Source: Candidatus Kapaibacterium sp. (GTDB lineage: Bacteria; Bacteroidota; Ignavibacteria; Kapaibacteriales; UBA2268). From it: a DNA stretch of 24,000 bases. Location: the NCBI GenBank assembly GCA_963678775.2, contig CAXXGR010000008.1, positions 272,632 through 296,631 of the forward strand, in the 5' to 3' direction. How positions within the stretch are numbered: the stretch's first letter is position 1; the number at the start of each line of letters is the position of its first letter. Shown piece by piece: positions 7,954 to 18,663 of the stretch. Both the position numbers and the translations under genes were made by a program. The notes under the pieces are model-generated. The model was given only the letters and a program-made list of their open reading frames with translations. It was not told the origin of the DNA and searched no databases.

Positions 7954-7985
7954 GTCGTTCTTCGAAAGTGGAGCGGCTTTTTTTT
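7954..7985 (+). terminator. rho-independent terminator after nrdJ
   Basis: GTCGTTC (7954-7960) pairs with GAGCGGC (7971-7977), giving 7 bp with two G-U pairs and a 10-nt loop. A T8 run follows at 7978-7985. Confidence 0.55.
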
Positions 7986-8087
7986 ATGCAGTATTCTTCA
8001 ATACATAATTATAATTAGTTATTTCTTAATTTTACAGTTATATTGCAAGCTATTAATATAAAATGATTTATTTCTTGAGGGAACTAA

Positions 8088-8441
8088 ATGTACTATTTAA
8101 TCAATCCTTTTAAAAATATTTTCAATTATTCCGGTAGAGCATCCAGAAAGGAATTTTGGATGTTTCAGCTTTACTATTTTATTCTATATATCTTACTGAT
8201 TTTCCCTTTAAGTTTCATAATTATGCTATTTGATACTGATATAGATAATCTTTCAGATATATTTTTCTTTGGTTTCCTTATATTACACAGTATTGTTAAT
8301 TTATCTATATCTGTTAGAAGAATTCACGATTTAAATAAAAGTGCGAGTTATTTGTTTTATAGTTTTATTCCTTTGGTGGGACATACAATAGACGAACCGC
8401 ATTATAAGTTCAGCAATAAAAGCAGGTACACTTTATGGTAA
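8088..8441 (+). CDS. DUF805-family membrane protein with aberrant/truncated C-terminus
   Basis: It has the N-terminal GRASRKEFW motif, hydrophobic segments and the SVRRIHDLNKS loop motif typical of DUF805 (YhaH/YhaI-like). After IPLVG the sequence diverges, lacking the usual hydrophobic segment and the G.N.YG.DP end. GAGGGA lies upstream of the ATG. Confidence 0.6.
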   Translation: MYYLINPFKNIFNYSGRASRKEFWMFQLYYFILYILLIFPLSFIIMLFDTDIDNLSDIFFFGFLILHSIVNLSISVRRIHDLNKSASYLFYSFIPLVGHTIDEPHYKFSNKSRYTLW

Positions 8442-9043
8442 AAGCTTCAATAGTAATCCTAATTCTTACTTTAGCACTGCAGGGTTGTGTATTCGATATT
8501 GCAGGATTCGTAATTAGAGGAGGAAGAGCTCCATTAGGAAAGCTTGAATATTTAAATAAGTACACAGATTCAGTGAAAGCGTTGGCAAAACCTTTAAGAA
8601 CTGATGGATATTATTATGCTATTGGGTCACGCTATACTTTAGACACAAAACACGATTATATGATATTGGTCCTATATTATGATGGAACAGTTTTTGTAGA
8701 ATCATGGTATGATCCTGACGGTGAATATGTAGCAGATTTTTCTGAAAGTAATGTTGAATATTTAATTCAAAAAAATAGAAATTTTCGAGCGACCTGGGGT
8801 GCATACATAATAGAAAAAGACAGTATCAAATTTCAATATTATACACCTAGTGATAATATTTTCTGTGATTTTTTGAGAACCTATAAAGGCACTATCATAA
8901 ATGATTCCACAATACACTTTAAATATTATCATGATACGAAGTGTGGTGGTTCTTATCCAAAGAAAGGACAAATTGATTTCGAGTTCAAATTCTTTCCAAT
9001 GGAAAACAAACCGGACTCAAGTAATACCTTTTTGTTTAAATGA
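8435..9043 (+). CDS. hypothetical lipoprotein
   Basis: The N-terminus MVKASIVILILTLALQGC is a signal peptide with a lipobox-like LQGC. The start overlaps the upstream stop by 7 nt. No family recognised. Confidence 0.6.
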   Translation: MVKASIVILILTLALQGCVFDIAGFVIRGGRAPLGKLEYLNKYTDSVKALAKPLRTDGYYYAIGSRYTLDTKHDYMILVLYYDGTVFVESWYDPDGEYVADFSESNVEYLIQKNRNFRATWGAYIIEKDSIKFQYYTPSDNIFCDFLRTYKGTIINDSTIHFKYYHDTKCGGSYPKKGQIDFEFKFFPMENKPDSSNTFLFK

Positions 9044-9062
9044 TAAAAAATGAGATAAATCT

Positions 9063-9272
9063 ATGAAACACAAAAAACTAGTCATAATGCTACTATTAGC
9101 ATTGCTGCAAACTTCGAGTTTGCTTGCGCAGCACACGATAACTTTCGGCTATGACGCTGCCGGAAATAGGAATCAAGTAAATTCTCCTATTTCATGCTTA
9201 GAAATTGATTGCCCCTGCCCGGATAATACCGACGGGTGGTTAGTGTTGGATGCTACACAACAAGAGGCATAA
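9063..9272 (+). CDS. small secreted protein with a single YD (Rhs-type) repeat and a Cys cluster; possible Rhs remnant
   Basis: The signal peptide is MKHKKLVIMLLLALLQTSSLLAQ. ITFGYDAAGNRNQV then matches the YDxxGR/N YD-repeat core, followed by SCLEIDCPCPD. Only 69 aa long. Confidence 0.45.
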   Translation: MKHKKLVIMLLLALLQTSSLLAQHTITFGYDAAGNRNQVNSPISCLEIDCPCPDNTDGWLVLDATQQEA

Positions 9273-9728
9273 GTTTCGTATTTTTTCTAGCTATTATTTT
9301 TTTAATAGCTATTGACCCCGTTGGCACTTGGGGACCAAAATATAATCAAGATGTTATTTCACAAAATATTGGCGGTAAATTAGTTCTTGATATATGTTAT
9401 ACAGCAGATCACCATGATTGGGATTATAACGAATTATATTTTTCCTGAGGCTCTTGCAGATGATGGTCATTCTCTAGGAATCAGTATAGGAGTTATCATT
9501 TTTATGGTAATTCTATTGCCGGACTTTTCCATAAATCTTTCTCTCACAGTAAGAAGACTTCATGATATTAACAAAGAAGGTACTTATGTGTTATGGAGTT
9601 TTGTTCCGCTTGTAGGTGGAATAATACTATTGATGGCATTGATCGAATCAGGTGATATAGGCAAAAACTACTATGGTGAAGATCCAAGAGATATAAGAAG
9701 AAAGAAACAAAATATAGAAAATTTTTAA
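9236..9728 (+). pseudogene. chimeric/frameshifted remnant: a TM segment and the start of the unrecognised domain joined to the C-terminal half of a DUF805 protein
   Basis: Two overlapping ORFs lie in different frames. ORF 9236-9448 encodes FVFFLAIIFLIAI...VISQNIGGKLVL, which resembles the TM plus TISQSIGGELLY block of the 17450-18547 protein. ORF 9387-9728 encodes only the DUF805 C-terminal half (TVRRLHDINKEG...VPLVGGIILL...GKNYYGEDP) and lacks the GRAxRxEYW N-terminus. Confidence 0.5.
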
Positions 9729-9736
9729 AAGTGGCT

Positions 9737-9768
9737 AAGGATATCCGAATAAATAGATATCTTTTTTT
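9737..9768 (+). terminator. rho-independent terminator
   Basis: AAGGATATC (9737-9745) pairs with GATATCTTT (9756-9764) across a 10-nt loop. The stem runs into a T-tract ending at 9768. Confidence 0.55.
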
Positions 9769-11362: not shown

Positions 11363-11393
11363 ATATTTAAGTTATGTTGAGTTGAGATATTTG

Positions 11394-11423
11394 CCCCGTG
11401 CAGCCGCACGGGGTGTGTTTTTT
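11394..11423 (+). terminator. rho-independent terminator after creD
   Basis: Perfect 8-bp GC-rich stem CCCCGTGC / GCACGGGG with loop AGCC, followed by TGTGTTTTTT. Confidence 0.85.
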
Positions 11424-11482
11424 AATCGAATATTAAAAATTATTTTAATAGATTTATACAATCTTTTATATTAGGAAAATAT

Positions 11483-11680
11483 ATGAGTCTTTCAATAAAT
11501 CTTGAAATGAAAATGCACAACGATTCTAATTTAGAACAAAACCAAACACCTACAAACAATGCATCAAAGAAAGTTGATTTAGTTACACTTTTAGATGATA
11601 TAGACCAAGGTGAAATATATAAAGAGTTCGAAACCGGTAATGATGTTGGTAATGAGATTTTAGAAACGGAAAAAATATGA
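11483..11680 (+). CDS. small acidic hypothetical protein (65 aa)
   Basis: AGGAAA lies 6 nt upstream of the ATG. The stop overlaps the next start (ATGA at 11677-11680). The C-terminal half is Asp/Glu-rich. No family recognised. Confidence 0.5.
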   Translation: MSLSINLEMKMHNDSNLEQNQTPTNNASKKVDLVTLLDDIDQGEIYKEFETGNDVGNEILETEKI

Positions 11681-12612
11681 AGGAAATTTTCAATTTAATT
11701 TATATCATAGCTATACACATTGTATGTTTGCCAATATTATATGTTTTTATATATTTTACTTTTACGAATACTCTTAGATTATTCTTGATTTCGGATATTA
11801 GATTGAAACCAATCTTATCTAAACCTTTTGGTATTGTCGGCATTTGTTTAGTTGAGTATTTTCTGATATTAGCGGATATACCAGATGAAATTACGAACCT
11901 ATTTATGTTTCTAAATGTAATTTTAGCTACTAATATTTTATTCTACAAAATTATTCTAAGTGCAAGAAAAAAAAATGGAAGACCTTTTTTAATTGCACAT
12001 TTAGGAACTGCAGTTGTTCTATTGCAGACATTGATTGCATTTACCGTTTCAGCATATTTAGATAAAACCAGTCCAAATGAATACTACGACGGTAAACCTA
12101 CGATTGATATCATAAAGCAGGATATTGGAGGATATTTAAGAGTTGAAAAAGTATCAGATATCTATGATTCTTGGAATATCAAGACTAAATACATGTATAT
12201 TACTCTTTCCAACGATACTTTGAAACTTGGTGAAGGATACTTCTATCAAATTTGGCAACCACCTATTAATCAGATTTATAAATACAAAAACTGGTATTTA
12301 TTGCCTTCATCAGAGCGAAAGGAATCAAAATTGATAATGTGGAATTTGGAAACTGAAGCAATAAAAAATTGGATTCTATCAGAAGATGATATTATTGACA
12401 CTGAAATATGGCAAGATAACGAACCAGACAGTTATGAGAATAATACAGACAAATCTTGTAATTTTATATCAAAAATTAAAGACAACATCGTTTTTATTAG
12501 ATACGAATATAAATCTTTAGACTCTGAAATTGAAGAAGATTCCCGTATACTAAAATATAAAATCGATCAGCAGACTGGTGATTTAACTTTGATTGATGTC
12601 ATTGAGGAGTAA
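11677..12612 (+). CDS. membrane protein: about 4 TM helices plus an unrecognised soluble C-terminal domain (shared with the 17450-18547 product)
   Basis: Four hydrophobic segments lie in aa 1-128. Three blocks in aa 131-311 are collinear with the C-terminus of the 17450-18547 protein: IIKQDIGGYLRVEKVS vs TISQSIGGELLYNMKIT, NWYLLPSSERKESKLIMWNL vs EWFIIPVNEDLSAQLLMYNF, and ILKYKIDQQTGDLTLIDV vs YVVYQIDEESGELSYYDM. Confidence 0.65.
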   Translation: MKEIFNLIYIIAIHIVCLPILYVFIYFTFTNTLRLFLISDIRLKPILSKPFGIVGICLVEYFLILADIPDEITNLFMFLNVILATNILFYKIILSARKKNGRPFLIAHLGTAVVLLQTLIAFTVSAYLDKTSPNEYYDGKPTIDIIKQDIGGYLRVEKVSDIYDSWNIKTKYMYITLSNDTLKLGEGYFYQIWQPPINQIYKYKNWYLLPSSERKESKLIMWNLETEAIKNWILSEDDIIDTEIWQDNEPDSYENNTDKSCNFISKIKDNIVFIRYEYKSLDSEIEEDSRILKYKIDQQTGDLTLIDVIEE

Positions 12613-12614
12613 AA

Positions 12615-13136
12615 TTGGATTTATTTTGGGAAATAATATACTGGTCAGGCTTGCATCTTGCATTTGCCTATCCCCTATTCCTTTTTTTTAAGATAAGCAT
12701 TACTATACTTAATGCAATTGAAGCAGAAGGTTCAAACAAAAGGAGACAGAGAATTTATTTGATTCTGTGTTGCTTAGCTGTGCTTACAATCGAAGCTCTG
12801 GTCTTCACTAAAGCCCTTCCACATTGGCTGATGATGCTACAGATATTTATAAATCTGATGATTCCCAGTTTCCTGATTTACAGCAAGATGCACGACAAAC
12901 AAAGAGAGCAAAAATTGAAAGAAAATGGGAATGTGTTTATCATAACTTTGATTTATATTCCACTAATTGCTCTCAGCATGGGTGTGGCATTTGCTGTTAC
13001 TATATTTATGATGGACTTAACTAATAAAATGGATACTAGAAACTGTGAATTTCAAATCATTCTGCCATCTTACCCGCCATTTACAAGGGAGGGTCGGTTT
13101 TCCATAGGAAAAGCGGGGTGGGTTTTAACGCTCTAA
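12615..13136 (+). CDS. membrane protein (about 4 TM), tandem paralogue of the TM module of the preceding gene, without the soluble domain
   Basis: TTG start with GAGGAG 5 nt upstream, inside the end of the previous gene. TM3 plus the basic loop (LQIFINLMIPSFLIYSKMHDKQ...) parallels LFMFLNVILATNILFYKIILSARKK of the upstream protein. The C-terminal 40 aa are non-homologous and overlap a G-rich structured stretch. Confidence 0.5.
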   Translation: MDLFWEIIYWSGLHLAFAYPLFLFFKISITILNAIEAEGSNKRRQRIYLILCCLAVLTIEALVFTKALPHWLMMLQIFINLMIPSFLIYSKMHDKQREQKLKENGNVFIITLIYIPLIALSMGVAFAVTIFMMDLTNKMDTRNCEFQIILPSYPPFTREGRFSIGKAGWVLTL

Positions 13137-13241: not shown

Positions 13242-15806
13242 ATGGCAAAAGATAAATATATCAATGATCAAGCTGCAACTACCGATGACTTCGGTACGCA
13301 CGCCAATATAGCCACCACCCTACTAGACACAATCGCAGATGAAGATAATAAGCCAATGACTATAGGTCTGGAAGGCTCCTGGGGCTCAGGTAAGTCCACT
13401 GTTGTGAATTTGATGTTTGAGGGAATAAAGAACGGTTTTATCGAATCTAAAACGGCTGAAGAAAACTCTGATTCTCAAAAAAATGAAACTTGGAAAAACA
13501 TCGAATACTTTTATATAGATGTTTGGCAGCACGAGCACTCTTGTATTAAGAGGGCAATTTTGCATGAGATGATAAAGACTTTGAAAAAAAAAGAAATTTA
13601 CAAAGGTCTTGATCCAATAGAAAAAGAACTGCACGGAACAACTACTAAGACATTCGTCACACCCTTTAGTATAATTCTTGCTTTTGCTGTAGTTGTAATT
13701 CCACTTATCGCAGCAATTTTGAATAATGCAGATTTAAATAATCTAACCTGGGAATTTACTGGATCGTTCGAAATAAATCTGATTGTTAGTATTGTATTAC
13801 TTGTTGCTTCTATTGGTGTTTTATTTAAATGCACTCCTAAACTCCTAAACATAACTGATAGATTTAAAAATAAAGATAACAAAAAAGAATTCCTTCTAGT
13901 TGAACAAACAACTACGACCTTTGAAAATTCTTCAATCGAGTTCAGTAGACACTTTAATGATATATTAGAAGTAGTAAATGGACAAAACAGTAAAAAGAAA
14001 ACCCTAATAGTCTTCGACAATCTCGACCGCATAGATGAAAAGAAAGCCAAAGAAATGTGGGCAGAGCTTCAAGTATTTATGCAGTATAGAAACCCGGGGG
14101 CAACTGAAGAAGAAAAAGAAGAACGCCCGTGGATTATTATTCCTTATGATTTAGATGGAATAAGGAAGATTTGGGGAGAGGAAGATGAGAAAAAGGCTTA
14201 CTCTAAAGAAGAACTAAATAAGAGACTTGAACTTCTTATCAATGATCGTGAAAGTAATCCAATTAAATCTTTTTTAGATAAAACTTTTTCTTTTAGAGTT
14301 CATGTGCCAAAGCAAATTACTAGTTACTGGAATTTTTACTTAGACAAATTTTCATGCAATTCCCCAGCGTCTATTCCTAGCATCGAATATCATATCACCT
14401 TAAAAGAAGCAGAAGATAATGAAGACTATTTTAGTGACGATAAAATTTTCAAAACAATTAAAAAAGTAATAGAATTTAAAGATCTTCAAAGCATAAGTAA
14501 ACCAATAAAACCGCGGGAAATAAATGATATTTTAAATACAGTAATTTTCTATAGAAATTTGATCTGTAAAATTAAAAACCACTCAATTTCTATTGAATCA
14601 TTATGCTTCTTTGCTTATCACTATTCTAGAAACGGACATTTGACACAAGAAGACAAACTTAATGTTGCCTATATCTCTGATCAGCAAATTTTAAAAAATA
14701 ATTTTCCAGTATATAAAGAAATAGACTATAATTTAAATTTAGATGCGATAGACTATCAACTTGACTTAACGAGTACAATAGAAATTACAATGGTTGACTT
14801 AATCCCAAACTATAAAAACAGTGGTAATAGATCTATCTGCTTAGATAAACTCTCTGATCTTGAAAATCAATTTAGCAATCTATTTTGGAAGAGAATACAT
14901 TCTTTTCTAACTTATGGGAATGATTTCAATACATATATCTGTTATTCTAATATACTAATGTTTTTCCACTCTAAATACAATGCATTTCATAATGATATTT
15001 ATCAGTGTTTATGTCTGCTAAATGATTTATTTATAAAGCAAAATATATCAACAATAGCTTTCAATAAATCTGGGAAAAACTACCTAAAATTAATTCATCA
15101 ATATAATATTGCAGATAACAACACAGATTTCCTCAATAAAGTCTTGAACGCATACAAAAAATGGATCCTCGAAACATGGCACAACAAAAGCAATAGTCTT
15201 GTCGATTTTAATATTTATTTAGAAATTTTTTCTATTGCAAAAATGCTTGATAAAGATTTTGTTATTAATATTAATTATAAAAACTATAATATGCTAATAG
15301 GAGCAATAATTGTACAAAAGATTATACTTCGTAACTTTTTTAACCTCGAAGAAAACAACTTTTACCCACAAAATGAGAAAACTATTGATCAAATTGGAAA
15401 AGTACGACTAACTGATTTAGTATTAGTGATTTTATTTACTAATGAATATAATAAGGAGTTTTTACAAAAGATATCTGAAGAAATATTAAAGATATTAAAA
15501 TATGCAGTAAAAAATGCTGAATACGAATCATTTGCTCATTTGTTAATAAGCATTTGGGAGTCTTTTAAAATCTTCTCACAGGCAAAAATACCAAATGATA
15601 CACCTTTGACAAATTTATTTCGAAAAGTATTATTGCATCAAATTACTTGGAAATATATTGATTTTTGTAATAATATTTTAGAGATGGAGGAGTTTAAAAT
15701 TATACCTGACATACTGGATGCTGACTCAAGTAATATCTCTGAATCCATAAAAAAAAGTGATCTAAATAGAGCTATTTTAAATCGCATAAAAATAGGGAAA
15801 CAATAG
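13242..15806 (+). CDS. KAP-family P-loop NTPase with a transmembrane hairpin inserted in the NTPase domain
   Basis: Walker A is GLEGSWGSGKST (aa 42-53) and Walker B is TLIVFDNLDRID (aa 254-265). Two hydrophobic helices (about aa 141-160 and 178-195) lie between them, as in KAP NTPases. YIDVWQHEH matches the family's conserved W after Walker A. A long helical C-terminal region follows. Confidence 0.82.
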   Translation: MAKDKYINDQAATTDDFGTHANIATTLLDTIADEDNKPMTIGLEGSWGSGKSTVVNLMFEGIKNGFIESKTAEENSDSQKNETWKNIEYFYIDVWQHEHSCIKRAILHEMIKTLKKKEIYKGLDPIEKELHGTTTKTFVTPFSIILAFAVVVIPLIAAILNNADLNNLTWEFTGSFEINLIVSIVLLVASIGVLFKCTPKLLNITDRFKNKDNKKEFLLVEQTTTTFENSSIEFSRHFNDILEVVNGQNSKKKTLIVFDNLDRIDEKKAKEMWAELQVFMQYRNPGATEEEKEERPWIIIPYDLDGIRKIWGEEDEKKAYSKEELNKRLELLINDRESNPIKSFLDKTFSFRVHVPKQITSYWNFYLDKFSCNSPASIPSIEYHITLKEAEDNEDYFSDDKIFKTIKKVIEFKDLQSISKPIKPREINDILNTVIFYRNLICKIKNHSISIESLCFFAYHYSRNGHLTQEDKLNVAYISDQQILKNNFPVYKEIDYNLNLDAIDYQLDLTSTIEITMVDLIPNYKNSGNRSICLDKLSDLENQFSNLFWKRIHSFLTYGNDFNTYICYSNILMFFHSKYNAFHNDIYQCLCLLNDLFIKQNISTIAFNKSGKNYLKLIHQYNIADNNTDFLNKVLNAYKKWILETWHNKSNSLVDFNIYLEIFSIAKMLDKDFVININYKNYNMLIGAIIVQKIILRNFFNLEENNFYPQNEKTIDQIGKVRLTDLVLVILFTNEYNKEFLQKISEEILKILKYAVKNAEYESFAHLLISIWESFKIFSQAKIPNDTPLTNLFRKVLLHQITWKYIDFCNNILEMEEFKIIPDILDADSSNISESIKKSDLNRAILNRIKIGKQ

Positions 15807-17185: not shown

Positions 17186-17396
17186 TTTTGATTTCCTCGA
17201 TTTTTATTTAAAATTGGGTATAATTCAATAGGAAAATGTGCTAGTGTAAAATTATCCAAAATAAAGGATATTATCAAATGATTTTGGTTTCAGTAATCAG
17301 GAATAAAAGTATTACGAATGGTGAATATGTAAAAGTAACAATATATAAGCACATTTTATGATATTAAATCAGCTAGCACCTGCACAAAATGGAAGA

Positions 17397-17421
17397 GGCA
17401 ACTCTAAATTTTAGAATTGCC
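17397..17421 (-). terminator. possible terminator hairpin downstream of the DUF805-fusion gene
   Basis: GGCAACTCTA pairs with TAGAATTGCC (one mismatch), 29 nt past the stop. On the minus strand it is followed by tcttccattttgtg, a modest T-tract. Confidence 0.35.
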
Positions 17422-17449
17422 CCAATCACTAAAAATATAATCAAATAAT

Positions 17450-18547
17450 CTAATCAAATTGCATATCATAGTAGGAGAGCTCACCGCTTTCTTCATCAAT
17501 TTGATAAACTACATAACGGAATTTCTCAGGATCAGGATCTTCACCCAATTTAATATCTTTAGGATCAATCATTATAATTGATACAAGATCACCGTAAACT
17601 TCACCAATATAGAATAAAGTATTTTTTGTGATGTAAGATTTTTCTTCTCCGTAAATATTTTTGCTGATAAAATTGTAGTCTATCTTCTGTAGTAATGTTT
17701 CATCTTTAGCAAAGTTATACATCAAAAGCTGAGCAGATAGATCTTCATTTACCGGAATAATAAACCACTCTCCAAAAAGTCCCATTTCCAAGTTTTCAAG
17801 AAGAGGTTCACGTTTGCAGTTCGCAGATCCTATATAAGTAGTGTCATTTGCTTCTGAAATATAGCTAAAATCAATATTATGTTTCTTTGATAGTTGACTA
17901 CCGGTAATCTTCATATTATAAAGCAGTTCACCGCCAATTGACTGACTTATAGTACCAGTTTTATCTTCATCTACTTCAGTCATCCCGTCTTTAACCAGAA
18001 AACCAATTAAAGTAAAAAAGCCAATGACACCCAGAGCAATGACAATAGAAGCAAAAATTGTAATTAATTTTCTCTGTTTCCTGATCTTTTCTTTTCTTTT
18101 CTGTATAAAACTCTCTGTTTCTTCATCAGAATCGGAAGGATACTTATCTTTGTATGGATCTTCACCATATTGATTCTCCCCTACATCACCCGGTAATAAG
18201 TGCATAGCAAAAATACTAAATGCTCCAAAATAAGGAATAATTCCCCAAAAAATATTATACCCACTTTTACCTATATCATGGAAACGTCTGATAGATAAAA
18301 ATATATTTGCTATCATCAAAATTAAGATATAAATAGTGAGAAAAATAAAAAACACCCCACTTATAGAACTATAAGTGAATTCAGGATCATTCAGCATTTT
18401 GAATTCAACCCCAACGATATGTTTTAGAAATTGCACAATTAGGAATGGTATAAACCACGACATAAAGAAAAACAACCAGTATTCTTTTCGGGTGGCTCTG
18501 CCCTGGAAGTCAAACAATTTTTTGAAGTAAATTTTGTAGTCGTTCAT
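17450..18547 (-). CDS. DUF805 membrane module fused via an extra TM helix to an unrecognised about 170-aa C-terminal domain
   Basis: Aa 1-131 form a complete DUF805 (GRATRKEYW, SIRRFHDIGKSG, GENQYGEDP). A charged linker, a TM helix (ITIFASIVIALGVIGFFTLIGFLV) and a domain homologous by eye to aa 131-311 of the 11677-12612 protein follow. Confidence 0.75.
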   Translation of the reverse strand: MNDYKIYFKKLFDFQGRATRKEYWLFFFMSWFIPFLIVQFLKHIVGVEFKMLNDPEFTYSSISGVFFIFLTIYILILMIANIFLSIRRFHDIGKSGYNIFWGIIPYFGAFSIFAMHLLPGDVGENQYGEDPYKDKYPSDSDEETESFIQKRKEKIRKQRKLITIFASIVIALGVIGFFTLIGFLVKDGMTEVDEDKTGTISQSIGGELLYNMKITGSQLSKKHNIDFSYISEANDTTYIGSANCKREPLLENLEMGLFGEWFIIPVNEDLSAQLLMYNFAKDETLLQKIDYNFISKNIYGEEKSYITKNTLFYIGEVYGDLVSIIMIDPKDIKLGEDPDPEKFRYVVYQIDEESGELSYYDMQFD

Positions 18548-18663
18548 AAGTCTTTAAAATCAAAGTGTAAAAAGAATTGCAAATATATATATAATATTTA
18601 TTATATCATAATAAGCATTGATATAAATTACTCTTATCTTTATCATGAAGTTATTATACTCTT

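What the first reader, a model, noticed from the sequence alone, without database searches (positions are those of the whole stretch)
11483..13136. Translationally coupled trio of unknown function: acidic 65-aa protein, 4TM + soluble-domain protein, 4TM-only paralogue
Seen: the three ORFs are chained by an ATGA overlap (11677-11680) and a 2-nt gap, with a GAGGAG site for the TTG start at 12615. They start 60 nt after the creD terminator and end 105 nt before the KAP NTPase gene on the same strand. Genes 2 and 3 share a similar TM module (FMFLNVILATNILFYKII vs LQIFINLMIPSFLIYSKM). The loop of gene 3 (YSKMHDKQ...ENGNVFIITLIYIPLIA) faintly recalls the DUF805 RRxHD...PLVG region. I recognise no family. 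Inference: a small soluble factor plus duplicated membrane proteins next to an NTPase fits a membrane-acting effector or immunity set, possibly working with the KAP protein.
Basis: partly seen in the sequence, partly recalled or inferred. Interest (0 to 1): 0.65.

Follow-up and report, generated by a model that had tools for sequence, protein, structure and literature searches.

The report
Truncated MazE antitoxin plus membrane paralogues
The three chained genes are real but ordinary: a cut-down MazE antitoxin that keeps only its toxin-binding tail, followed by two related four-helix membrane proteins found only in Kapaibacteria. They sit at a recombination hot spot and are not tied to the neighbouring KAP NTPase.

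Summary
The ORFs, the ATGA overlap, the 2-nt gap, the GAGGAG site and the flanking distances are all as described. Three things change the picture.

1. g1 (65 aa) is not family-less. Its residues 30-61 are homologous to the MazF/PemK-binding tail of MazE antitoxins. It lacks the AbrB DNA-binding domain, and no PemK gene lies in the window.
2. g3 is the conserved anchor gene. It is 141 aa in every relative. The window's 173-aa form comes from a 1-nt deletion in a G run, possibly an assembly error.
3. g2 is found in only one other, closely related MAG. It is a g3-like 4TM module fused to a beta-rich domain, predicted periplasmic. That domain recurs on a DUF805 protein 5 kb away.

The g3 loop shows no DUF805 relationship. 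KAP linkage is not conserved: KAP is absent from two lineages and separated from g3 by IS110 or MazEF cassettes in others. The family is confined to a few Kapaibacteriaceae/Chlorobiota MAGs.

My best reading, which is inferred and not shown, is that g1 is a stand-alone anti-PemK tail co-transcribed with orphan membrane proteins. A TA-like pairing of g1 with the 4TM proteins is the main rival. Interest is modest.

The parts
11392..11425 (+). Intrinsic terminator of creD. It marks the left boundary of the unit.
   Evidence: 10-bp, GC-rich hairpin followed by a T run. The near-identical g1-g2 block shared with L001 begins just after it.
11483..11680 (+). g1: a 65-aa acidic protein, a 5'-truncated MazE-type antitoxin that has the tail only and no AbrB/SpoVT domain.
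   Evidence: ORF. No Pfam, NCBIfam or PADLOC hit. Homologues of 52 aa occur in L005-8 and L012/13, always 2 nt upstream of a g3-family gene. dN/dS is 0.37-0.48.
11576..11659 (+). The segment of g1 (aa 32-59) homologous to the MazF/PemK-binding C-terminal tail of MazE.
   Evidence: 50 % identity over 28 aa to the MazE of L004/L009. The g1-family HMM scores 30.2 and 27.1 bits against those MazEs, with 0 of 5000 tail-composition-preserving shuffles reaching that (maximum 11). It scores 9.6 bits against E. coli MazE residues 53-81, reached by 1 of 5000 shuffles. The L004 MazE aligns over nearly its whole length (residues 3-75) to PDB 1ub4_C, and over 1-77 to 7d2n_E. Tail dN/dS is 0.2-0.4.
11677..12066 (+). 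g2 N-terminal module (aa 1-130): four TM helices, paralogous to g3.
   Evidence: TM segments lie at about 7-38, 50-68, 72-93 and 104-122. It is collinear with g3 to the g3 C-terminus and shares Y9, H14, P19/20, E60, P69, N80 and the K..NG..F motif. HMM-shuffle test. The start codon occupies the same junction as the g3 start in L005/L012.
12067..12609 (+). g2 C-terminal beta-rich soluble domain (aa 131-311), predicted periplasmic.
   Evidence: 24 % identity over 213 aa, E = 2e-6, to the C-terminal half of the DUF805-fusion protein at 17450-18547 on the minus strand. AF2 predicts all-beta structure at low confidence (pLDDT 48). The positive-inside rule places loops 1 and 3 in the cytoplasm and the C-terminus outside (sequence). 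There are no Pfam, PDB or Foldseek matches.
12582..12614 (+). Conserved 33-nt leader of g3, including GAGGAG (12604-12609). It is also the last 10 codons of g2.
   Evidence: The same sequence precedes g3 in L001, L003, L004 and L009, whatever the upstream gene. The g2 C-terminus aligns to its paralogue's C-terminus to the last residue, so the leader in the other strains is probably a relic of the g2 3' end.
12615..13136 (+). g3: an orphan 4TM inner-membrane protein. The native form is 141 aa (equivalent end about 13039). The window copy is extended to 173 aa.
   Evidence: Six homologue clusters, all 141 aa, at 53-88 % identity, plus L012 at 46 %. dN/dS is 0.2-0.5. A profile search of 1.84 billion representatives finds only this family. 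There are 44 invariant columns, including H14, E60, H70 and N80.
13031..13032 (+). Site of the 1-nt deletion (GG instead of GGG) that removes the g3 stop codon.
   Evidence: Alignment with L001, L003 and L009 shows ATGGGATACTAG against the window's ATGGATACTAG. Related MAG assemblies carry indel errors; for example, the L012 SHMT gene is split into four ORFs.
13066..13128 (+). Intergenic repeat element, read through by the frameshifted g3. It forms the boundary of the variable cassette region upstream of KAP.
   Evidence: One copy in the window and in L001, five in L003 (a ~247-nt unit array interrupted by IS110), two in L004 and one in L009. No Rfam hit and no fold signal.
13242..15806 (+). 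KAP-family P-loop NTPase. It is a neighbour and not a conserved partner of the trio.
   Evidence: PF07693, E = 2.3e-11. It is absent or separated from g3 in related loci. It is only 42-51 % identical to the KAPs of L001, L003 and L004, with an unrelated C-terminal part in L001 and L004; the L003 KAP aligns over its full length at 43 %.
17450..18547 (-). 365-aa DUF805 protein whose C-terminal TM plus soluble domain is the only detected paralogue of the g2 C-terminal domain.
   Evidence: DUF805 E = 2.6e-24 at aa 11-129. Its aa 161-362 align to g2 aa 105-308. The gene is absent from L001 and present in L003/L004.

Best explanation
Shown:
- The trio is a composite, lineage-restricted operon (Kapaibacteriaceae/Chlorobiota MAGs). 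It sits at the creD-proximal edge of a recombination hot spot.
- g1 is a 5'-truncated mazE. It has lost the AbrB/SpoVT DNA-binding domain. It keeps, under purifying selection, the acidic L..L...I.....Y.E[FI][DE].G..VG.E tail, which corresponds to the MazF-binding tail of solved MazE-MazF complexes.
- g3 is the conserved resident gene: a 141-aa protein with four TM helices, belonging to an orphan family.
- g2 is a tandem paralogue of g3, found in only one other, closely related MAG. It carries an extra beta-rich domain shared with a nearby DUF805 fusion protein.

Predicted from sequence:
- g3 has its N- and C-termini outside, with two basic cytoplasmic loops. The extra domain of g2 is periplasmic.

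Inferred mechanism:
- g1 acts as a DNA-binding-less antitoxin. Its disordered acidic tail binds and neutralises a PemK/MazF-type RNase in trans. The likely target is the toxin of the MazEF cassette that sits just downstream of g3 in sister strains. This would be an anti-addiction or orphan-antitoxin role, allowing strains to lose or resist that cassette.
- g1 is simply co-transcribed and translationally coupled with the membrane genes.
- g2 and g3 most likely form a small hetero-oligomeric inner-membrane complex. The conserved intramembrane H14, E60 and N80 suggest an ion- or proton-handling site, and the g2 periplasmic domain could serve as an added sensor or binding module.
- The KAP NTPase is an independent, allele-swapping, single-gene defence candidate.
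For: Homology of the g1 tail to MazE:
- 50 % identity over 28 aa to the MazE of L004/L009.
- The g1-family HMM scores 30.2 bits, reached by 0 of 5000 composition-preserving shuffles. It also aligns to E. coli MazE residues 53-81.
- The local MazE aligns over nearly its whole length to PDB MazE 1ub4_C and 7d2n_E.
- The MazE C-terminus is disordered and is the toxin-neutralising part (PMC4333400).

Evidence on the likely target:
- g1 shares lineage-specific tail features with the local MazE, such as S/T-G in place of the canonical W-G. This points to a PemK of that type as the target.
- The tail motif is retained after saturating synonymous divergence (dS 0.9-1.6, omega 0.2-0.4).
- No AbrB remnant is present, and there is no room for one: only about 58 nt separate the terminator from the start.
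- In the sample, g1 and MazEF never share a locus. g1 is present without MazEF in the window, L001, L005-8 and L012/13. MazEF is present without g1 in L004 and L009.
- The MazEF cassette is a clean indel between the g3 stop and the repeat element.

Anatomy of g2 and g3.

Independence from KAP. Single-gene KAP NTPases with variable C-terminal regions defend against phage on their own (PMC13552941).
Against: - No PemK/MazF gene is in the 24-kb window, and the rest of the genome could not be examined. A target for g1 is therefore unproven.
- The g1-to-4TM junction is conserved at nucleotide level in three diverged lineages. A purely 'hitch-hiking' g1 does not predict this. It fits a functional g1-4TM pair better.
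- The exclusivity of g1 and MazEF rests on about 6-7 loci, and L003 has neither.
- The role proposed for g2 and g3 is inferred only from topology and conserved polar residues. No homologue of known function exists. AF2 models were poor (pLDDT 44-48).
- g2 has only one near-identical relative (two nonsynonymous and no synonymous differences). Selection on it cannot be measured.
Confidence: 0.38

Rival explanations
1. TA-like or abortive-infection-like membrane module. The 4TM proteins (g3, and g2 with its periplasmic domain) are membrane-depolarising or pore-forming effectors. g1, made in coupled stoichiometry, holds them inactive by binding their basic cytoplasmic loops with its acidic, labile MazE-derived tail. 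Loss of g1 by proteolysis or translation shut-off would release the effector.
For: - The g1-to-4TM junction (stop and ATG within 2-4 nt) is conserved and orthologous in the window clade and in L005 and L012/13. It mirrors the ATGA overlap between MazE and PemK in L004.
- g1 is net -9. g3 loops 1 and 3 carry 10 K/R and are predicted cytoplasmic.
- In six of seven lineages, g3 is accompanied by a protein bearing a MazE-type tail: g1 upstream, or full MazE about 100 nt downstream.
- Precedents exist for small cytosolic antitoxins neutralising membrane toxins: SpoIISABC (PMC3057836, PMC4926146) and PanA with TM toxins (PMC8832971).
Against: - g3 persists intact and under purifying selection without g1 in L003, L004 and L009. 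L003 has no MazE-like gene at the locus at all.
- The retained tail motif is the one MazE uses for the MazF fold, with no sign of remodelling for a new partner.
- g1 is identical in the window and L001 while g3 loop 1 differs strongly between them, so there is no co-variation.
- There are no hits to holin, RexB, SpoIISA or other toxin models.
- g3 is syntenic and vertically placed next to creD, and is not mobile as a pair.
Confidence: 0.2
2. Orphan membrane immunity proteins. g2, g3 and the 106-aa paralogues in L003/L004 would be a tandem array of diversifying inner-membrane immunity proteins against membrane-targeting toxins of competitors or against phage entry (superinfection-exclusion-like). 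g1 would be unrelated cargo.
For: - Tandem, fast-diverging paralogues occupy one slot: g2N, up132/129 and g3.
- The locus is mosaic. g1-g2 differs at 2 sites in 1.2 kb, whereas the first 200 nt of g3 carry 34 differences between the window and L001. g3 is 91 % identical to L003 while creD is 75 %.
- The distribution is lineage-restricted.
- The neighbourhood is rich in small membrane proteins and conflict genes: DUF805, SLATT_5, an RHS-like fragment, KAP and MazEF.
Against: - No cognate toxin or effector gene is adjacent in any locus.
- g3 is single-copy, syntenic and fairly conserved (dN/dS 0.2-0.5, not diversifying overall).
- There is no similarity to any known immunity family.
Confidence: 0.12
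3. One reading: a small soluble factor plus duplicated membrane proteins that act together with the downstream KAP NTPase as one multi-gene effector, immunity or defence system.
For: - The genes lie on the same strand. No predicted terminator lies between g3 and KAP in the window.
- g3 and KAP share the creD-SHMT interval in the window, L001, L003 and L004.
- KAP proteins are membrane-associated (PMC13552941).
Against: - KAP is absent where g1-g3 occur in L012/L013 and L005.
- In L003 and L004, KAP is 2.8-4.3 kb from g3, behind IS110 or behind MazEF plus oppositely oriented genes.
- KAP alleles are swapped independently. KAP is 42 % identical between the window and L001, whose g1-g2 is 99.8 % identical.
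- The PADLOC matches to QatA and PifA cover only the P-loop, and no Qat partner genes are present.
- Single KAP genes suffice for defence.
Confidence: 0.05
4. No special system. g1 is a slowly decaying relic of an old mazEF insertion with no present function. g2 and g3 are ordinary lineage-specific envelope proteins.
For: - g1 lacks both a DNA-binding domain and a local toxin.
- g1 is dispensable in L003, L004 and L009.
- The g1 N-terminal part evolves almost freely.
- All three families are tiny and confined to a few MAGs.
Against: - The tail motif is preserved after synonymous saturation (omega 0.2-0.4), and the ORF is intact in three lineages.
- The start, stop and coupling geometry are conserved.
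Confidence: 0.15

Closest known systems
MazE / PemI / ChpS antitoxins (AbrB/MazE/SpoVT family; PDB 1UB4, 1MVF, 7D2N)
   Same: g1 carries the C-terminal acidic, disordered, toxin-neutralising tail motif. It is most similar to the MazE of sister Kapaibacteria (50 % over 28 aa). It precedes the next gene with the same ATGA or 2-nt coupling as mazE-pemK.
   Different: There is no AbrB/SpoVT swapped-hairpin DNA-binding or dimerisation domain, so no autoregulation is possible. No MazF/PemK gene follows; a 4TM membrane gene occupies the toxin slot. g1 is 52-65 aa, against about 80 aa for MazE.
Orphan / anti-addiction antitoxins (chromosomal or phage-borne antitoxin homologues that neutralise toxins in trans, e.g. 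the phage orphan antitoxin against DarTG1, PMC11825919)
   Same: An antitoxin-derived gene without a cognate toxin, located where the matching TA cassette comes and goes in related strains.
   Different: Trans-neutralisation is untested here. g1 is only a tail fragment and is conserved in operon with membrane genes.
SpoIISA-SpoIISB/C (Bacillus) and PanA-TM-toxin pairs: protein antitoxins for membrane toxins
   Same: The architecture matches: a small, cytosolic, disordered protein next to a polytopic membrane protein. g2, like SpoIISA, is TM helices plus a soluble domain.
   Different: There is no sequence relationship (no Pfam SpoIISA or Panacea hit). The gene order differs from spoIIS. The g2 soluble domain is predicted periplasmic, not cytoplasmic. 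g3 exists without g1 in several strains.
DUF805 (PF05656) membrane proteins
   Same: The genomic neighbourhood is the same. A DUF805 fusion protein (17450-18547, minus strand) shares the TM-plus-beta-rich C-terminal domain with g2.
   Different: The 4TM modules of g2 and g3 show no DUF805 signal (hhalign probability 0.7 % or less; HMM controls negative). The RRxHD...PLVG motif is absent.
Lambda RexB-type 4TM effectors and LrgA/holin-like small membrane proteins
   Same: Size (about 141 aa) and four TM helices. The proteins sit in a defence-type variable region next to a soluble partner gene.
   Different: No sequence match in PADLOC, PHROGs or Pfam. The partner is a 65-aa antitoxin tail, not a RexA-like sensor. 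The resemblance is recalled from memory only, as a lead.

Membership tests
MazE-type (AbrB/MazE/SpoVT) type II antitoxin | N-terminal swapped-hairpin AbrB/SpoVT DNA-binding domain (PF04014) | tested here: not met
   No Pfam or NCBIfam hit for g1 at E <= 1. tblastn with the L004 MazE finds only aa 52-79 in the window. Only about 58 nt lie between the creD terminator and the g1 start.
MazE-type (AbrB/MazE/SpoVT) type II antitoxin | C-terminal acidic disordered tail with the MazF-binding motif | tested here: met
   BLASTP gives 50 % identity over 28 aa, E = 2e-7. The g1 HMM scores 30.2 and 27.1 bits against local MazEs (0 of 5000 shuffles) and 9.6 bits against E. coli MazE residues 53-81 (1 of 5000). 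The local MazE aligns to 1ub4_C over residues 3-75 of 79.
MazE-type (AbrB/MazE/SpoVT) type II antitoxin | Cognate MazF/PemK toxin gene immediately downstream | tested here: not met
   The downstream genes are 4TM proteins with no PemK hit. tblastn with the L004 PemK finds nothing in the window, L001, L003, L005 or L012/13.
MazE-type (AbrB/MazE/SpoVT) type II antitoxin | Neutralises a MazF/PemK RNase by direct binding | not testable with these tools
   This needs co-expression rescue, a pull-down, or complex prediction.
Type II TA with membrane toxin (SpoIISABC-like / PanA-TM toxin-like) | Small cytosolic protein encoded adjacent to, and coupled with, a polytopic membrane protein | tested here: met
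   g1/g2 share an ATGA overlap. g1/g3 have a 2-nt gap in L005 and L012/13.
Type II TA with membrane toxin (SpoIISABC-like / PanA-TM toxin-like) | Sequence membership in SpoIISA_toxin, Panacea or other known TA families | tested here: not met
   No hit in Pfam, NCBIfam, PADLOC or PHROGs for g1, g2 or g3.
Type II TA with membrane toxin (SpoIISABC-like / PanA-TM toxin-like) | The toxin gene never occurs without its antitoxin | tested here: inconclusive
   g3 lacks g1 in L003, L004 and L009. L004 and L009 carry a full MazE with a similar tail about 100 nt downstream. L003 has none.
Type II TA with membrane toxin (SpoIISABC-like / PanA-TM toxin-like) | The membrane protein is toxic and is neutralised by the small protein | not testable with these tools
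   This requires expression assays.
DUF805 (PF05656) | Match to the DUF805 profile, including the RRxHD...PLVG loop | tested here: not met
   No DUF805 hit for g2 or g3 at E <= 1-10. hhalign of the g3 family against local DUF805 proteins gives probability 0.7 %, and the g2 N-terminus gives 0.1 %. DUF805 proteins score no better than shuffles against the g3 HMM.
KAP-NTPase multi-gene defence systems (Qat, Pif) | Conserved operonic linkage of the accessory genes with the KAP NTPase | tested here: not met
   KAP is absent in L012/13 and L005, and is separated from g3 by IS110 or MazEF plus a TonB receptor gene in L003/L004. KAP alleles are exchanged independently.
KAP-NTPase multi-gene defence systems (Qat, Pif) | Partner proteins matching QatB-D or PifC models | tested here: not met
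   PADLOC returns no family for g1-g3. KAP matches QatA and PifA only over residues 6-63, the P-loop.
g3 orphan 4TM family (defined here) | About 141 aa, four TM helices, invariant GLH.AFA.PL / E60 / FTK.LPH / F.N...P / KE.G..F motifs | tested here: met
   This holds for g3: alignments A1 and A7 have 44-51 invariant columns. g2 aa 1-135 is a distant member.

The most novel reading that the evidence does not exclude
The MazE-derived tail has been re-used to gate a new class of small four-helix membrane effectors. On this reading, g1 plus a g3-family protein is a previously unrecognised TA or abortive-infection family: a labile, tail-only antitoxin with no DNA-binding domain keeps a membrane-depolarising channel closed. 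g2 would add a periplasmic sensor domain. In L004 and L009 the full-length MazE just downstream of g3 would serve both PemK and g3.
Probability: 0.13. Interest if true: 0.62.

Novelty: new variant of a known kind. Interest (0 to 1): 0.36.

Why it matters
If the best reading holds, this is a natural 'minimal antitoxin': a MazE reduced to its toxin-binding tail and kept for a long time without its toxin or its DNA-binding domain. It sits at the same hot spot where the matching MazEF cassette is gained and lost. That would be a neat case for the anti-addiction idea and for how TA cassettes are domesticated.

If the rival holds, it would show an antitoxin tail switching from an RNase to a membrane protein.

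Either way, the practical value is modest. The families are confined to a handful of uncultured Kapaibacteriaceae MAGs. g2 and g3 have no relatives of known function. The supposed link to the KAP NTPase, which made the locus look like a multi-gene defence system, does not hold.

Tried and rejected
1. Family scans. Pfam, NCBIfam, PADLOC and PHROGs scans of g1-g3 gave nothing above noise. Per-member scans of the g3 family and of the g2 domain also gave no consistent weak family.
2. DUF805 relationship of g3 or the g2 N-terminus: rejected.
3. Protein searches in large collections.
   - g2 has one 99 % relative.
   - g3 has six clusters.
   - g1 has three clusters.
   - A full HMMER profile search of 1.84 billion representatives with the g3 family found only itself.
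4. Contig scans. Two scans of metagenome contigs, three of viral contigs and one of GTDB genomes found no further loci beyond the two species already known. tblastn against phage and plasmid collections found no match.
5. Structure.
   - AF2 of g2 alone gave pLDDT 44, and of the g2 soluble domain with a 3-row alignment gave pLDDT 48.
   - Foldseek against PDB gave no hit with E < 0.1 and TM-scores no higher than 0.36, so it is uninformative.
   - PDB sequence searches with g1 and with the soluble-domain profile found nothing.
6. Rfam on the whole window gave no hit. The repeat element shows no RNA-fold signal (z = -0.39).
7. KAP partnership: rejected on synteny.
8. g1 as a frameshifted full-length mazE pseudogene: rejected. 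No AbrB-coding remnant exists in any frame, and there is no space for one.
9. CPBP/Abi-type intramembrane protease, holin, LrgA and RexB resemblances for g3 were considered from memory. No model matched and the motif order differs, so I am not pursuing them as claims.


Full report
**Observation**

- g1 is at 11483-11680 (65 aa). It has 14 D/E against 5 K/R.
- g2 is at 11677-12612 (311 aa).
- g3 is at 12615-13136 (173 aa, TTG start).
- g1 and g2 overlap by ATGA. g2 and g3 are 2 nt apart.
- GAGGAG (12604-12609) lies 5 nt before the TTG.
- A strong hairpin with a T run (11392-11425) ends creD about 60 nt upstream.
- The KAP NTPase gene starts 105 nt downstream (PF07693).

At 28-37 % G+C these ORFs are far longer than chance allows. 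The probability of no stop in 311 codons is 7e-13. The longest stop-free stretch is 318 codons, against at most 136 in 500 shuffles.

**Source organism and relatives**

- Related loci come from a 'Chlorobiota bacterium' MAG (JBFHIJ01) and from Candidatus Kapaibacterium MAGs.
- All three protein families are confined to this lineage.
  - g2 has one 99 % relative.
  - g3 has six clusters, plus the copy in L012/13.
  - g1 has three clusters.
- An index-free HMMER profile search of 1.84 billion representatives with the g3 family returned only itself.
- Scans of metagenome contigs, viral contigs, phage records and plasmid records added nothing.

**g1 is a truncated MazE**

In L004 and L009 a canonical MazE-PemK pair lies just downstream of g3. 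Its MazE ends in ...YDLDTLLAQIDESELYDEIDSGDSVGMEL. The corresponding stretch of g1 reads VDLVTLLDDIDQGEIYKEFETGNDVGNEIL.
- BLASTP gives 50 % identity over 28 aa.
- An HMM of the three g1 homologues scores 30.2 and 27.1 bits on those MazEs. None of 5000 shuffles that preserve tail composition reaches this (maximum 11).
- The same HMM scores 9.6 bits on E. coli MazE residues 53-81, reached by 1 of 5000 shuffles.
- The local MazE aligns over nearly its whole length to solved MazE chains: residues 3-75 to 1ub4_C and 1-77 to 7d2n_E.
- In MazE the C-terminus is the disordered, toxin-neutralising part, and residues 1-50 bind DNA (PMC4333400).

g1 has no AbrB/SpoVT domain. There is also no room upstream for a decayed one. 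The short N-terminal part of the 52-aa homologues (KIKIED, KIRFED) may correspond to the last beta-strand of the AbrB fold. I did not test that.

The tail is under purifying selection (omega 0.2-0.4) despite saturated synonymous divergence. The N-terminal part is barely constrained.

**g3 is the anchor gene, and its length in the window is not native**

- Every homologue is 141 aa.
- The window has ATGGATACTAG where the others have ATGGGATACTAG. One G is missing at 13031-13032, the TAG stop is lost, and 32 extra residues are read out of an intergenic repeat.
- Sister assemblies show indel errors. For example, the L012 SHMT gene is broken into four ORFs. The deletion may therefore be an assembly artefact.
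- g3 has four hydrophobic segments.
- By the positive-inside rule, the N- and C-termini lie outside, and loops 1 and 3 are cytoplasmic, carrying 10 K/R in total.
- Polar residues in or next to the membrane (H14, E60, H70, N80) are invariant.
- dN/dS is 0.2-0.5.

**g2 is a composite**

Its first ~135 residues are collinear with g3 right to the position of the g3 C-terminus. They share Y9, H14, P19/20, E60, P69, N80 and the K..NG..F motif.
- The similarity is weak: BLASTP E = 7e-4 and hhalign E = 0.004.
- It exceeds all 2000 global and all 2000 local-block shuffles against the g3 HMM.
- DUF805 controls do not exceed shuffles.
- The 106-aa proteins that replace g2 in L003/L004 also pass this test.

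The rest of g2 (TM4 plus about 180 beta-rich residues) matches the C-terminal half of the 365-aa DUF805 protein at 17450-18547 on the minus strand, and its 337-aa orthologues. Identity is 24-26 % over about 210 aa, E = 2e-6. In both proteins a basic stretch precedes the TM helix, so the domain is predicted to be periplasmic.

I could not identify the fold.
- AF2 gave pLDDT 44-48.
- Foldseek gave no hit with E < 0.1 and TM-scores no higher than 0.36.
- Neither Pfam nor PDB sequence searches found a match.

**How the locus is built**

| Locus | Arrangement after creD |
|---|---|
| Window, L001 | g1, g2, g3, repeat, KAP |
| L003 | 106-aa paralogue, g3, repeat array with IS110, KAP |
| L004 | 106-aa paralogue, g3, MazE-PemK, TonB receptor gene, KAP |
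| L009 | g3, MazE-PemK |
| L012/13 | g1, g3, lipoprotein gene, SHMT; no KAP |
| L005-8 | g1, g3 follow urocanase and precede a DNA methylase |

- The 3' end of g1 and the following ATG are collinear at nucleotide level between the window (g1 to g2) and L005/L012 (g1 to g3). g2 therefore occupies the ancestral 4TM slot next to g1.
- The 33 nt before g3, including GAGGAG, are conserved whatever lies upstream. They encode the last 10 residues of g2, which align to the paralogue's C-terminus.
- That leader is therefore probably a relic of the g2 3' end in strains that lost or truncated g2. The 2-nt 'coupling' of g2 and g3 is partly a by-product of this.

**Mosaicism**

- Between the window and L001 the background divergence is about 3-5 %.
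- The g1-g2 block (11400-12612) differs at only two sites, both nonsynonymous.
- The next 200 nt, which encode g3 TM1 and loop 1, carry 34 differences.
- g3 is about 91 % identical to the L003 copy, while creD is 75 % and the ribonucleotide reductase (RNR) gene is 81 %.
- The MazEF cassette is a clean indel between the g3 stop and the repeat element. It is 92-95 % identical (aa) between L004 and L009, whose g3 genes are far more diverged (dN 0.32, dS about 1).

**KAP**

- Linkage to KAP is not conserved (see the table above).
- The KAP proteins of the window and L001 are only 42 % identical, and their C-terminal parts are unrelated. The window KAP is 51 % identical to the L004 KAP over the NTPase region and 43 % to the L003 KAP over its full length.
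- PADLOC matches to QatA and PifA cover only the P-loop.
- Single-gene KAP NTPases with variable C-terminal regions have been shown to defend against phage on their own (PMC13552941).
- I therefore treat KAP as an independent neighbour.

**Mechanism (inferred)**

I favour g1 as a stand-alone PemK/MazF-neutralising tail, for three reasons.
- It keeps the motif that MazE uses for the MazF fold.
- It shares lineage-specific features with the local MazE.
- In this small sample, g1 and the MazEF cassette never share a locus.

g2 and g3 would then be co-transcribed orphan membrane proteins, probably forming a hetero-oligomer with an ion- or proton-handling site.

The main rival is a TA-like pair in which g1 restrains the 4TM proteins.
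- For: the g1-4TM junction is conserved, and there are precedents in SpoIISABC and in PanA with TM toxins.
- Against: g3 is intact without g1 in three lineages, and there is no g1/g3 co-variation.

None of this can be settled without experiments.

**Verdict**

It is partly wrong: a family is recognisable for g1, the DUF805 link to the g3 loop fails, and the KAP link fails. The locus is a lineage-specific variant built from a known part (a MazE tail) and orphan membrane proteins. Interest is modest.

Noticed in passing
window 13066-13128; L003 10414-13143; L004 14259-14594; L009 2935-2997: A conserved ~63-nt element with two short hairpins (ACCCTCC/GGAGGGT and TTTTCC/GGAAAA) lies between g3 and KAP. 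L003 has five copies within a ~247-nt unit array that is interrupted by an IS110-family transposase gene. The last copy always sits about 115-170 nt upstream of the KAP start. It may be the recombination or insertion site of this hot spot. It has no Rfam hit and no RNA-fold signal.
   Followed up: partly
window 13242-15806 versus L001 11567-14506, L003 13257-15920 and L004 14683-16860: The KAP NTPase alleles are 854, 979, 887 and 725 aa long. They are only 42-51 % identical in the NTPase part, and the C-terminal parts of the L001 and L004 alleles are unrelated to the window's. The flanking genes are about 95 % identical at nucleotide level between the window and L001. This looks like allelic replacement typical of defence genes.
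   Followed up: partly
L004 10529-11106; L009 2041-2618: A MazE-PemK cassette is inserted exactly between the g3 stop and the repeat element. It is 92-95 % identical (aa) between two lineages whose g3 genes are far more diverged (dN 0.32, dS about 1), so the cassette was exchanged recently. A perfect palindrome TATACAtTGTATA lies in its upstream region and is a candidate operator.
   Followed up: partly
window 11400-12612 versus 12615-12800: The g1-g2 block (28.5 % G+C) differs from L001 at only 2 of about 1200 sites. The next 200 nt (g3 TM1 and loop 1) carry 34 differences. There is a sharp recombination breakpoint at the g2/g3 junction. Loop 1 of g3 appears to come in two allelic types: KI[SG]I.ILN.IE.E.SNK.RQR and KQGN..LNKI...
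   Followed up: partly
window 7985-9767: This segment is absent from L001. It holds a C-terminally truncated DUF805 gene (8088-8441), a 202-aa putative lipoprotein (8435-9043), a 69-aa signal-peptide protein with a single RHS-like repeat (9063-9272) and an N-terminally truncated DUF805 gene (9387-9728). It looks like an insertion into a tandem DUF805 pair such as the one in L004.
   Followed up: no
window 17298-18662 (gene 17450-18547, minus strand): The 365-aa DUF805-fusion gene is absent from L001 but present at about 91 % nucleotide identity in L003/L004. The side of the interval beyond SHMT is therefore variable too. Its DUF805 part matches a phage 'moron/membrane protein' family (phrog_12855, E = 4e-18).
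   Followed up: partly
L003 5604-6203: A SLATT_5 protein (a predicted pore-forming conflict-system effector domain) occupies the RNR-creD interval in L003. The window and L004 have DUF805 genes there instead.
   Followed up: no
L012 11550-12850 versus L013 11550-12845: SHMT is split into four ORFs in L012 but is intact in the near-identical L013. This shows indel errors in these MAG assemblies, which bears on the 1-nt deletion in the window's g3.
   Followed up: no
L003 9662-9982; L004 9661-9972: The ~106-aa g3-like proteins upstream of g3 end in a different reading frame inside the conserved g2-derived leader (stop TGA in aacTTTGATTGA). They look like a divergent g2-slot allele that lost TM4 and the periplasmic domain.
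   Followed up: partly
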